Assembly (NCBI RefSeq): GCF_009914755.1
Contig: NC_060930.1
Strand: one strand, 5' to 3'
DNA: 64,000 nucleotides
Source of the DNA: the human T2T-CHM13v2.0 reference genome, Homo sapiens
Shown here: positions 5,810 to 9,630 of the stretch, piece after piece
Layout of the letters: each line of letters starts with the position of its first letter
How positions within the stretch are numbered: the first letter of the stretch is position 1
The notes under the pieces: generated by a model
Seen by the model: only the letters and a program-made list of their open reading frames with translations
What the model was told of the DNA's origin: nothing
Database searches by the model: none
Program-made: the position numbers and the translations under genes

Positions 5810-7667
5810 TTTTTTTTTTTTAACTATACTTTAACTTCTAGGGTACATGTACACAACGTGCAGGTTTGTTACATATGTATACATGTGCTATGTTGGTGTG
5901 CTACACCCATTAACTCGTCATTTACATTAGGTATATATCCTAACGCTATCCCTCCCTGCTGCCCCCACCCCACGACATGCCCCAGTGTGTGATGTTCCCC
6001 TTCCTGTGTCCAAGTGTTCTCATTGTTCAGTTCCCACCTATGAGTGAGAACATGCGGTGTTTGTTTTTTTGTCCCTGTGACAGTTTGCTGAGAATGATGG
6101 TTTCCAGCTTCATCCATGTCCCTACAAAGGACATGAACCCATCTTTTTTATGGCTGCATAGTATTCCATGGTGTATATGTGCCACATTTTCTTAATCCAG
6201 TCTATCACTGTTGGACATGTGGGTTGGTTCCAAGTCTTTGCTATTCTGAATAGTGTCGCAATAAACATACGTGTGCATGTGCCTTTATAGCAGCATGATT
6301 TATAATCCTTTGGGTATATACCCAGTAATGGGATGGCTGGGTCAAATGGTATTTCTAGTTTGAGATCCTTGAGGAATTGCCACACTGTCTTCCACAATGG
6401 TTGAAGCAGTTTACAGTCCCACCAACAGTGTAAAAGTGTTCCTATTTCTCCACATCCTCTCCAGCACCTGTTGTTTCCTGACTTTTTAATGATCTCCATT
6501 CTAACTGGTGTGAGATGGTAACTCATTGTGGTTTTGATTTGCATTTCTCTGATGGCCAGTGATGATGAGCATTTTTTCATGTGTCTTTTGGCTGCATAAA
6601 TGTCTTCTTTTGAGAAGTGTCTGTTCATATCCTTCACCCACTTGTTGATGGGGTTGTTTGTTTTTTTCTTGTAAATTTGTTTGAGTTCTTTGTAGATTCT
6701 GGATATTAGCCCTTTGTCAGATGAGTAGATTGCAAAAATTTTCTCCCATTCTGTAGGTTGCCTGTTCACTCTGATGATAGTTTCTTTTGCTGTGCAGAAA
6801 CTCTTTAGTTTAATTAGATCCCATTTGTTAATTTTGGCTTTCGTTGCCATTGCTTTTGGTGTTTCAGACATGAAGTCCTTGCCCATGCCTATGTCCTGAA
6901 TGGTATTGCCTAGGTTTTCTTCTAGGGTTTTTATGGTTTTAGGTCTAACATTTAAGTCTTTAATCCATCTTGAATTAATTTTTGTATAAAGTATAAGGAA
7001 GGGATCCAGTTTCAGCTTTCTCCATATGGCTAGCCAGTTTTCCCAGCACCATTTATTAAATAGGGAATCCTTTCCCCATTTCTTGTTCTTGTCAGATTTG
7101 TCAAAGATCAGATGGTTGTAGATATGTGGTATTATTTCTCAGGGCTGTGTTCTGTTCCATTGGTCTGTATCTCTGTTTTGGTACCAATACCATGCTGTTT
7201 TGGTTACTGCAGCCTTGTAGTATAGTTTGAAGTCAGGTAGCGTGATGCCTCCAGCTTTGTTCTTTTGGCTTAGGATTGTCCTGGCAATGCGGGCTCTTTT
7301 TTGGTTCCATATGAACTTTAAAGTAGCTTCTTCCAATTCTGTGAAGAAAGTCTTTGGTAGCTTGATGGGGATGGCATTGAATCTATAAATTACATTGGGC
7401 AGTATGGCCATTTTCACGATATTGATTCTTCCTATCCATGAGCATGGAATGTTTTTCCATTTGTTTGTGTCCTCTTTTATTTAGTTGAGCAGTGGTTTGT
7501 AGTTCTCCTTGAAGAGGTCCTTCTCATCCTTTGTCAGTTGGATTCCTAGGTATTTTATTCTCTTTGAAGCAATTGTGAATGGGAGTTCACTCATGATTTG
7601 TCTGTTCTTGGTGTATAAGAATGTTTGTGATTTTTGCACATTGATTTTGTATCCTGAGACTTTGCTG
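5810..7667 (-). mobile_element. 5'-truncated L1PA (L1PA4/5-like), left arm of palindrome
   Basis: Poly(T) at 5808-5821, L1 3' UTR, ORF2 C-terminal ORFs 6122-6886 and 7139-7417; TSD copy tctgaaatggtaaatttctt at 5790-5809. Confidence 0.97.
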
Positions 7668-7721
7668 CACGAAACAATATAAACAGCACAAGTCCTCCTT
7701 TAAGAAACTTACCATTTCATA

Positions 7722-9630
7722 CCCCATCATCTCAGCCCAAAATCTCCTTAAACTGATAAGCAACTTCAGCAAAGTCTCAGGATACAAAGTCAATGTGCAA
7801 AAATCACAAGCATTCTTATACACCAAGAACAGACAAATCATGAGTGAACTCCCATTCACAATTGCTTCAAAGAGAATAAAATACCTAAGAATCCAACTGA
7901 CAAAGGATGTGAAGGACCTCTTCAAGAACTACAAACCACTGCTCAACTAAATAAAAGAGGACACAAACAAATGGAAAAACATTCCATGCTCATGGATAGG
8001 AAGAATCAATATCGTGAAAATGGCCATACTGCCCAATGTAATTTATAGATTCAATGCCATCCCCATCAAGCTACCAATGACCTTCTTCACAGAATTGGAA
8101 GAAGCTACTTTAAAGTTCATATGGAACCAAAAAAGAGCCCGCATTGCCAGGACAATCCTAAGCCAAAAGAACAAAGCTGGAGGCATCATGCTACCTGACT
8201 TCAAACTATACTACAAGGCTGCAGTAACCAAAACAGCATGGTATTGGTACCAAAACAGAGATATAGACCAATGGAGCAGAACACAGCCCTGAGAAATAAT
8301 ACCACATATCTACAACCATCTGATCTTTGACAAATATGACAAGAACAAGCAATGGGGAAAGGATTCCCTATTTAATAAATGGTGCTGGGAAAACTGGCTA
8401 GCCATATGGAGAAAGCTGAAACTGGATCCCTTCCTTACACTTTATACAAAAATTAATTCAAGATGGATTAAAGACTTAAATGTTAGACCTAAAACCATAA
8501 AAACCCTAGAAGAAAACCTAGGCAATACCATTCAGGACATAGGCATGGGCAAGGACTTCATGTCTAAAACACCAAAGGCAATGGCAACGAAAGCCAAAAT
8601 TAACAAATGGGATCTAATTAAACTAAAGAATTTCTGCACAGCAAAAGAAACTACCATCAGAGTGAACAGGCAACCTACAGAATGGGAGAAAATTTTTGCA
8701 ATCTACTCATCTGACAAAGGGCTAATATCCAGAATCTACAAAGAACTCAAACAAATTTACAAGAAAAAAACAAACAACCCCATCAACAAGTGGGTGAAGG
8801 ATATGAACAGACACTTCTCAAAAGAAGACATTTATGCAGCCAAAAGACACATGAAAAAATGCTCATCATCACTGGCCATCAGAGAAATGCAAATCAAAAC
8901 CACAATGAGATACCATCTCACACCAGTTAGAATGGCAAACATTAAAAAGTCAGGAAACAACAGGTGCTGGAGAGGATGTGGAGAAATAGGAACACTTTTA
9001 CACTGTTGGTGGGACTGTAAACTGCTTCAACCATTGTGGAAGACAGTGTGGCGATTCCTCAAGGATCTCAAACTAGAAATACCATTTGACCCAGCCATCC
9101 CATTACTGGGTATATACCCAAAGGATTATAAATCATGCTGCTATAAAGACACATGCACACGTATGTTTATTGCAACACTATTCACAATAGCAAAGACTTG
9201 GAACCAACCCAAATGTCCAACAATGATAGACTGGATTAAGAAAATGTGGCACATATACACCATGGAATACTATGCAACCATAAAAAAAGATGAGTTCATG
9301 TCCTTTGTAGGGACATGGATGAAGCTGGAAACCATCATTCTCAGCAAACTGTCACAGGGACAAAAAACAAACACCGCATGTTCTCACTCATAGGTGGGAA
9401 CTGAGCAATGAGAACACTTGGACAGAGGAAGGGGAACATCACACACTGGGGCCTGTCGTGGGGTGGGGGTATTGGGGAGGGATAGCATTAGGAGATATAC
9501 CTAATGTAAATGACGAGTTAATGGGTGCAGCACACCAACATGGCACGTGTATACATATGTAACAAACCTGCACGTTGTGCACATGTACCCTAGAACTTAA
9601 AGTATAATAAAAAATAAATAAATAAAAATA
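7722..9630 (+). mobile_element. 5'-truncated L1PA (L1PA4/5-like), right arm of palindrome
   Basis: ORF2 C-terminal ORFs 8014-8292 and 8545-9393, 3' UTR, A-rich tail 9605-9630. Confidence 0.97.

What the first reader, a model, noticed from the sequence alone, without database searches (positions are those of the whole stretch)
5821..9610. Identity gradient across the arms suggests arm-to-arm gene conversion
Hand counts: near the spacer the arms differ at ~2 of 105 bp (7563-7667) and by ~2 substitutions plus a 3-bp indel in ~190 bp (7381-7570). At 6901-7070 they differ at ~1 of 170 bp. The outermost ~210 bp (5821-6030 vs 9400-9610) differ at ~16 positions and the tails differ. The captured copy at 4678-4827 differs from the right arm at ~10 of 150 bp. 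The arm tips and the outside copy therefore record ~7% divergence, while the interior is ~2%. Inference: an old structure kept similar by concerted evolution, like Y-chromosome palindromes but much smaller and made entirely of L1.
Basis: inference. Interest (0 to 1): 0.72.

Follow-up and report, generated by a model that had tools for sequence, protein, structure and literature searches.

The report
Chimeric L1 palindrome copied once
Two dead L1 retrotransposon pieces face each other in a human intron, 98% alike except at their outer 200 bases, likely because one DNA-repair event copied one over a neighbour some 6-10 million years ago, not because they are still being kept alike as Y-chromosome palindromes are.

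Summary
Over 1,635 bp (7767-9401 against 6030-7667) the arms differ at 1.7% with no trend. They share 23 rare changes absent or rare in outside L1 copies, including two stop codons and a 12-bp deletion, so they descend from one already-dead copy. Over the outer 205 bp they differ at 6.8%, the same as unrelated L1 copies, and share no rare change. One L1's target-site duplication is split between the left arm's tail and the right arm's 5' end. This fits a two-junction template switch that copied the left L1 into a second, inverted L1. Steady Y-like conversion fits poorly: the implied rate is 30-150 times below X/Y palindromes and the differences are not patchy. An older palindrome reset once by one long conversion tract is nearly as likely, because the captured outside copy looks older than the arm split. 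Ape orthologues, not available here, decide it. Known kind of rearrangement; modest interest.

The parts
4668..4677 (+). First copy of a 10-bp duplication flanking the captured segment
   Evidence: same 10 bases at 4668 and 4988
4678..4827 (-). Captured copy F, L1 part: the 5'-most 150 bp of the truncated L1; shares the 12-bp deletion and two rare substitutions with the arm lineage, carries 8 private changes
4828..4847 (+). Copy of the 20-bp target-site duplication, at the L1 5' junction inside F
   Evidence: 3 matches in the window, 0.03 expected
4848..4987 (+). Captured 140 bp of the L1's original flank (Y). Only its first 25 bp survive elsewhere (7677-7701); 4873-4987 has no other match in the genome, so the original was deleted
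   Evidence: 2 matches genome-wide
4988..4997 (+). Second copy of the 10-bp duplication
5790..5809 (+). Target-site duplication next to the left L1's tail
5810..5824 (-). Poly(A) tail of the left L1 (T run on +)
   Evidence: sequence
5825..6029 (-). Left tip: last 205 bp of the L1 3' UTR, 6.8% from the right tip, no rare change shared
6030..7667 (-). Left arm interior: end of L1 ORF2 and 3' UTR, lacking the 5'-most 45 bp; two stop codons shared with the right arm
7668..7676 (.). 9-bp filler at the non-homologous fold-back junction; no convincing template within 15 kb
7677..7721 (-). Inverted 25 bp of flank Y plus the 20-bp target-site duplication: the left L1's own 5' junction, now attached to the right arm
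7722..7766 (+). Unpaired 5'-most 45 bp of the L1, completing the 99-bp spacer
7767..9401 (+). Right arm interior, 28 substitutions and 3 indels from the left arm; stops at 7948-7950 and 8290-8292; 8293-9132 matches L1 ORF2p residues 905-1184
9402..9606 (+). Right tip: as far from the left tip as unrelated copies are; inferred remnant of a second L1
9607..9631 (+). Patterned A-rich tail of the right arm; the sequence after it has no second copy in the window or the genome

Best explanation
This is an inverted pair of dead, 5'-truncated L1 pieces whose inner 1.64 kb descend from one copy, likely made in a single replication-repair event that switched template twice about 6-10 million years ago. 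Shown: the left L1 inserted normally (20-bp target-site duplication, tail); it then gathered private mutations; the right arm now carries that L1's 5' junction and its private mutations up to about 9401 but a tip with none of them; part of the flank was deleted; the inner junction is non-homologous with a 9-bp filler. Inferred: a second L1 of similar age lay downstream in the opposite orientation. A broken fork ending about 205 bp inside that second L1 invaded the first by homology, copied it backwards through its 5' junction and 25 bp of flank, then rejoined the first L1 45 bp inside its 5' end without homology. That would delete everything between the two elements, leave a chimeric right arm, a 99-bp spacer, an even 1.7% interior and a sharp edge. 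No conversion since is needed. The captured copy at 4678-4987 was copied from the intact junction before or during this event. The structure has no sign of a function.
For: Interior arms form a clade with full support against 35 outside copies (SH-aLRT 100; stem 0.025, tips 0.009 and 0.011); no outside pair of 378 is as close. 23 strict or 31 lenient shared rare alleles in the interior, 0 in the tip (Fisher p=0.0015 and 0.0005). Tip divergence 6.83% equals the mean of outside pairs, 6.83%; 33 of 55 outside copies are closer to the right tip than the left tip is. Two shared stops. Target-site duplication split between arms; flank deleted; filler at the inner junction. No interior trend, no long identical tract, no clumping of shared against arm-specific sites. 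The same two-junction design, a chimeric repeat plus a microhomology or small-insertion junction, sometimes with templated insertions, is described in PMC11293582 (passages).
Against: The captured copy dates to 0.58-0.81 of the element's age against about 0.33 for the arm split (likelihood ratio 17-98, or 5-18 if three clustered changes count as one); if it was captured in the same event, the palindrome is older than its interior. The second L1 is inferred: its own target-site duplication is not found, and the 205-bp tip tree cannot reject a common origin of the tips (AU p=0.85). Both tips agree at all 7 variable columns, a pattern held by 3 of 55 outside copies. Only 2.9-3.9 shared rare alleles were expected in the tip, so zero is modest evidence (p=0.056 and 0.021). 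With the strict allele set a steep curve fits as well as a step. Outside copies were picked by similarity to the arms, which biases the baselines.
Confidence: 0.45

Rival explanations
1. Old palindrome, reset once. The same template-switch event built the palindrome and the captured copy much earlier (roughly 12-16 million years ago), and one long arm-to-arm conversion, or a last few, made the inner 1.64 kb identical again about 6-10 million years ago; little or none since.
For: Clock fit of the captured copy. Captured copy and fold-back junction both centre on the same L1 5' junction, which suggests one event (sequence; inference). Conversion tracts in Y palindrome P6 average at least 2,068 bp (PMC3723533, passages), so one tract could cover the interior. 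A steep curve toward the tip fits the strict allele set.
Against: Most of the captured copy's distance lies on its own branch (8 against 3; 11 changes in the L1 part against a maximum of 8 among 28 outside copies), so error-prone capture could mimic age. No site in the 105-bp overlap has both arms derived and the captured copy ancestral (little power). It needs a near full-length tract and then silence.
Confidence: 0.42
2. Continuing concerted evolution as in Y and X palindromes: repeated conversion tracts hold the arms at a steady similarity that fades toward the tips.
For: Shared derived alleles throughout the interior; shared-to-specific ratio is a little higher near the spacer, 15:14 against 8:17, but p=0.18.
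Against: Implied rate 2u/d = 1.5e-6 per base per generation, 30 times below X palindromes and 147 times below the Y estimate, and below the autosomal allelic rate of 5.9e-6. Simulated steady conversion is patchier than observed at all seven tract lengths tried. No long identical tract; no GC bias.
Confidence: 0.08
3. Two independent young L1 insertions that are simply similar, with a faster-evolving 3' end, rearranged by an inversion and deletion without any copying.
For: The L1 3' end does mutate faster: outside pairs differ at 6.8% there against 4.5% in the interior. An inversion between inverted L1s would also move a 5' junction across (PMC2603318, passages).
Against: Shared stops, shared 12-bp deletion (exact junction found only in the two arms, 2 of 27 genome matches at up to 3 mismatches) and 23 shared rare alleles cannot arise independently; each arm is about 5% from outside copies but 1.7% from its partner.
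Confidence: 0.02
4. Assembly artefact from fold-back reads.
For: Palindromes with short spacers are a known source of such errors (own knowledge).
Against: Arms differ at 45 places, with derived changes split evenly between them (16 left, 15 right in the interior), and have different tips, tails and flanks.
Confidence: 0.01

Closest known systems
Inverted-repeat-driven two-switch rearrangements (DUP-TRP/INV-DUP model; PMC11293582, passages read)
   Same: One junction inside a pair of inverted repeats giving a chimeric repeat; a second junction without homology, with a small insertion; a templated insertion nearby.
   Different: Here the repeats are 1.9-kb L1 pieces, not low-copy repeats; the outcome is a deletion plus an inverted duplication, not a triplication; it is fixed or old, not a patient allele; the ancestral allele was not seen.
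Palindromes of primate X and Y chromosomes under gene conversion (PMC8981503, PMC3723533, passages read)
   Same: Inverted arms with a spacer; arms share derived changes.
   Different: Autosomal, 1.84-kb arms against a median of 37 kb; 97-98% identity against 99.95%; no gene; no GC bias or identical tracts seen; implied conversion rate 30-150 times lower.
L1 recombination-mediated inversions between human and chimpanzee (PMC2603318, passages read)
   Same: Inverted L1 pair, exchange inside the L1 homology, loss of internal sequence (12 of 49 such loci had deletions).
   Different: A plain inversion keeps two separate L1 lineages; here one lineage fills both arms.
Interrupted palindromes from fold-back or ODIRA-type events (PMC10766186, passages; PMC3907307, abstract only)
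   Same: Inverted duplication with a short spacer at a fold-back junction.
   Different: No short inverted repeat is evident at the junction, a 9-bp filler instead; far smaller than the clinical cases.

Membership tests
5'-truncated L1 (LINE-1) insertion | ORF2p homology | tested here: met
   8293-9132 matches L1 ORF2p residues 905-1184, E 1e-176
5'-truncated L1 (LINE-1) insertion | 3' poly(A) tail and target-site duplication | tested here: met
   Left element: tail plus 20-bp duplication, the 5' copy now at 7702-7721 and 4828-4847. The right tail has no partner duplication.
L1PA5 subfamily | Diagnostic 3' UTR bases against the subfamily consensus | not testable with these tools
   Label recalled, from no call; no repeat library on hand. 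Arms are about 5% from the nearest outside copies. Age 20.4 million years for L1PA5 is from PMC5237266 (passages).
Sex-chromosome-type palindrome under concerted evolution | Arm-to-arm identity above 99% | tested here: not met
   97.2% overall, 98.3% in the interior
Sex-chromosome-type palindrome under concerted evolution | Arms closer to each other than to their orthologues in related species | not testable with these tools
   No ape genome is held (no relatives)
Sex-chromosome-type palindrome under concerted evolution | Conversion tracts or GC-biased fixation | tested here: not met
   Longest identical run p=0.15, runs test p=0.51-0.74; shared changes 17 toward GC, 16 toward AT, as in outside copies; few sites, so low power
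Sex-chromosome-type palindrome under concerted evolution | Variants converted between arms among living haplotypes | not testable with these tools
   No population data held
Two-switch inverted-repeat rearrangement (BIR then MMBIR or end joining) | Junction 1 inside an inverted repeat, making a chimeric repeat | tested here: inconclusive
   Right arm switches from shared to unshared ancestry at about 9402, but a conversion boundary looks the same
Two-switch inverted-repeat rearrangement (BIR then MMBIR or end joining) | Junction 2 without long homology, with microhomology or a small insertion | tested here: met
   9-bp filler at 7668-7676
DUP-TRP/INV-DUP | Triplicated inverted segment within a duplication | tested here: not met
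   Deletion of the flank plus inverted duplication; it works like the model but is not that structure

The most novel reading that the evidence does not exclude
A 3.8-kb gene-free autosomal palindrome built from L1 debris before the orangutan split, whose arms were reset by long conversion tracts independently in several ape lineages, leaving the captured copy and the unpaired spacer as built-in unconverted clocks: a small natural model for how arm conversion starts, erodes from the tips and stops.
Probability: 0.3. Interest if true: 0.55.

Novelty: new member of a known kind. Interest (0 to 1): 0.3.

Why it matters
As read here it is a clear fossil of a complex repair event between two L1 copies, with every junction legible. 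It also shows that an identity drop at palindrome tips can come from a chimeric arm and need not mean concerted evolution. If the ape orthologues instead show an old palindrome reset in each lineage, it would show that arm conversion can act on a 2-kb gene-free autosomal repeat, and the locus would allow direct timing of when conversion stops. No function is indicated.

Tried and rejected
Even gradient: rejected for the interior, only a steep edge survives. Faster 3' UTR evolution as the whole explanation: rejected, the contrast stays after correction. Independent young insertions and assembly artefact: rejected (see rivals). Using the captured copy as a plain 7% clock: unsafe, its branch is lopsided. 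Tip tree: uninformative, the free search did not find the best tree and AU p=0.85. Search for the second L1's target-site duplication: none in the window, flanks unique in the genome, so the size of the deletion could not be estimated. Template for the 9-bp filler: best partial match 9 bases at 10948, at chance level. Published lists: no entry near this locus in the supplements that could be read as text of PMC2603318, PMC13629690 and PMC12229492 (its hits were elsewhere); these are weak negatives, since coordinate formats may defeat the search and the GRCh38/hg19 positions rest on recalled offsets. Supplements of PMC8755829 and PMC12058530 were unreadable scans and may bear on the question. 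Paper searches listed no report of this locus or of an all-L1 autosomal palindrome under conversion; the library lacks most subscription papers, and two papers asked for by id were not held.

Full report
The feature. A self-comparison of the window gives one long inverted pair, 5804-7667 against 7767-9626, 97.2% identical over 1,865 columns, and a 195-bp inverted copy of 7677-7871 at 4678-4872. The arms are the 3' end of an L1: the stop-free stretch 8293-9132 matches L1 ORF2p residues 905-1184. They face 5' ends inward with tails outward, around a 99-bp spacer. By the hub's annotation the whole structure lies in an intron of HEY2-AS1.

A global alignment lists 45 difference events in 1,840 bp and reproduces every hand count: 2 near the spacer, 2 plus a 3-bp indel in the next 190 bp, 1 at 6901-7070, 14 substitutions in the outer 205 bp plus differing tails, and 10 of 150 for the captured copy. 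Divergence is not uniform (31 events in 1,635 bp against 14 in 205 bp, p=0.0002). The best single change-point on raw differences alone falls at 9149 (p=0.005; 0.044 with clustered changes collapsed), so there is some rise before the tip, part of which follows the higher mutability of the L1 3' end.

Outside copies as a baseline. I fetched 56 other L1 copies from the same genome, 28 by similarity to the whole right arm and 28 by similarity to the left tip; both sets are biased toward the arms. In the interior the arms differ at 28 of 1,634 sites (1.7%), outside pairs at 4.5% on average, none of 378 pairs as low, and each arm is about 5% from outside copies. In the tip the arms differ at 6.83%, outside pairs at 6.83%, and 33 of 55 outside copies are closer to the right tip than the left tip is. 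Polarising each site, the interior has 23 shared alleles seen in at most 6% of outside copies (31 at 20%), the tip has none (Fisher p=0.0015 and 0.0005). The shared changes include two ORF2 stop codons and a 12-bp deletion whose exact junction occurs only in the two arms among 27 genome matches at up to 3 mismatches. The interior arms are a fully supported pair in a tree of 37 rows. So the interior descends from one copy that was already dead; the tips show no shared history after insertion, though 205 bp cannot reject a common origin near the time of insertion (AU p=0.85; agreement at 7 variable columns).

Gradient or edge. The interior has no trend (KS p=0.44), no unusually long identical run (255 bp, p=0.15) and no clumping of shared against arm-specific sites. 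Joint models with local mutability reject a constant by 7.4-8.7 log units. A step to full age at about 9405 beats a linear gradient by 5.3 units with the lenient alleles (0 of 60 simulations under the linear model did so); with the strict alleles a steep curve ties with a step at 9361. The fair description is a plateau with an edge in the last 200-450 bp. Simulated steady conversion with tracts of 20 to 1,600 bp gives patchier data than seen (joint p 0.003-0.043) while a single copying event does not (0.14); this simulation assumes an even mutation rate.

Junctions. A 20-bp target-site duplication occurs three times: beside the left tail (5790-5809), inverted at the right arm's 5' end (7702-7721) and inside the captured copy (4828-4847). 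So the left tail and the right 5' junction belong to one insertion. The flank that followed that junction survives as 25 bp in the spacer and 140 bp in the captured copy; 4873-4987 has no other match in the genome, so the original was deleted. The left arm stops 45 bp short of the L1's 5' end and joins the inverted flank through a 9-bp filler. The right tail has no partner duplication. The captured segment 4678-4987 sits between two copies of a 10-bp sequence, with no tail, which reads as a templated insertion at a staggered break (inference).

Timing. The arm split is 0.29 of the element's age by tree and 0.33-0.41 by the step model. If the element is L1PA5 (label recalled, not tested; 20.4 million years in PMC5237266, passages) that is 6-8 million years; I widen it to 6-10 because calibration is loose. 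[quoted passage not shown] If conversion were steady, c = 2u/d gives 1.5e-6 per base per generation, against 4.5e-5 for X palindromes and 5.9e-6 for autosomal allelic conversion (PMC8981503, passages) and 2.2e-4 for Y palindromes (PMC3723533, passages).

The captured copy is the open point. It shares three derived changes with the arm lineage, has 8 of its own in 195 bp against 3 on the spacer/right-arm side, and 11 in its L1 part against at most 8 among 28 outside copies. Under a clock it split at 0.58-0.81 of the element's age, and this is 17-98 times likelier than a split with the arms, or 5-18 times if three changes within 9 bp count as one. If capture was earlier, or error-prone, the creating event explains the arms alone.

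Mechanism. I favour, narrowly (0.45), a two-switch repair: a fork broken about 205 bp inside a second, inverted L1 invaded the first L1 by homology, copied it backwards through its 5' junction, and rejoined it without homology near its 5' end. The junction anatomy and the mutation pattern are shown; the second L1, the order of switches and the date are inferred. This works like the model for inverted-repeat rearrangements in PMC11293582 (passages) but is not a DUP-TRP/INV-DUP. The near-equal rival (0.42) is the same construction made earlier and reset once by a long tract, which P6 tract lengths allow. Continuing Y-like concerted evolution is unlikely (0.08). What both leading readings share, one copying of the inner 1.64 kb long after insertion and little exchange since, I hold at about 0.85.

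What is known. Recombination and template switching between inverted L1s, with loss of internal sequence, is described (PMC2603318, passages), as are fold-back palindromes with short spacers (PMC10766186, passages). Seven paper searches (listings and abstract starts) and three readable supplement sets gave no entry for this locus; two supplement sets could not be read. It is best filed as a new instance of a known kind of rearrangement. Interest 0.3; 0.55 if the ape orthologues show lineage-by-lineage resetting.

Noticed in passing
window 4668-4997: The captured segment is a 310-bp templated insertion (L1 5' end, target-site duplication, 140 bp of flank) between 10-bp direct repeats, with no tail, inside what looks like an older L1M-type remnant (label recalled). 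It is the only surviving record of the deleted flank.
   Followed up: yes
window 5825-9606, minus strand: The palindrome lies in an intron of HEY2-AS1, so the unspliced RNA would be able to fold into a stem of about 1.8 kb at 97% pairing with a 99-base loop, a likely substrate for A-to-I editing. Not tested.
   Followed up: no
G000:C8:65352324-65352497: Another L1 carries the same kind of 12-bp deletion junction twice, 141 bp apart on one strand, which suggests a short tandem duplication inside that element.
   Followed up: no
window 7833 and 25 other genome places: A deletion of about this size at this spot of L1 ORF2 recurs in scattered copies (27 matches at up to 3 mismatches), probably through short flanking homology.
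   Followed up: partly
window 34261-35028 and 52131-52975: Two older L1 3' ends in opposite orientation, 17 kb apart, 87.6% alike; ordinary, with no sign of homogenisation.
   Followed up: no
window 43313-44208: An array of about 41-bp units and related 100-bp repeats that overlaps the HEY2-AS1 exon at 44142-44208; it resembles an LTR of the LTR12 group (label recalled, not tested).
   Followed up: no
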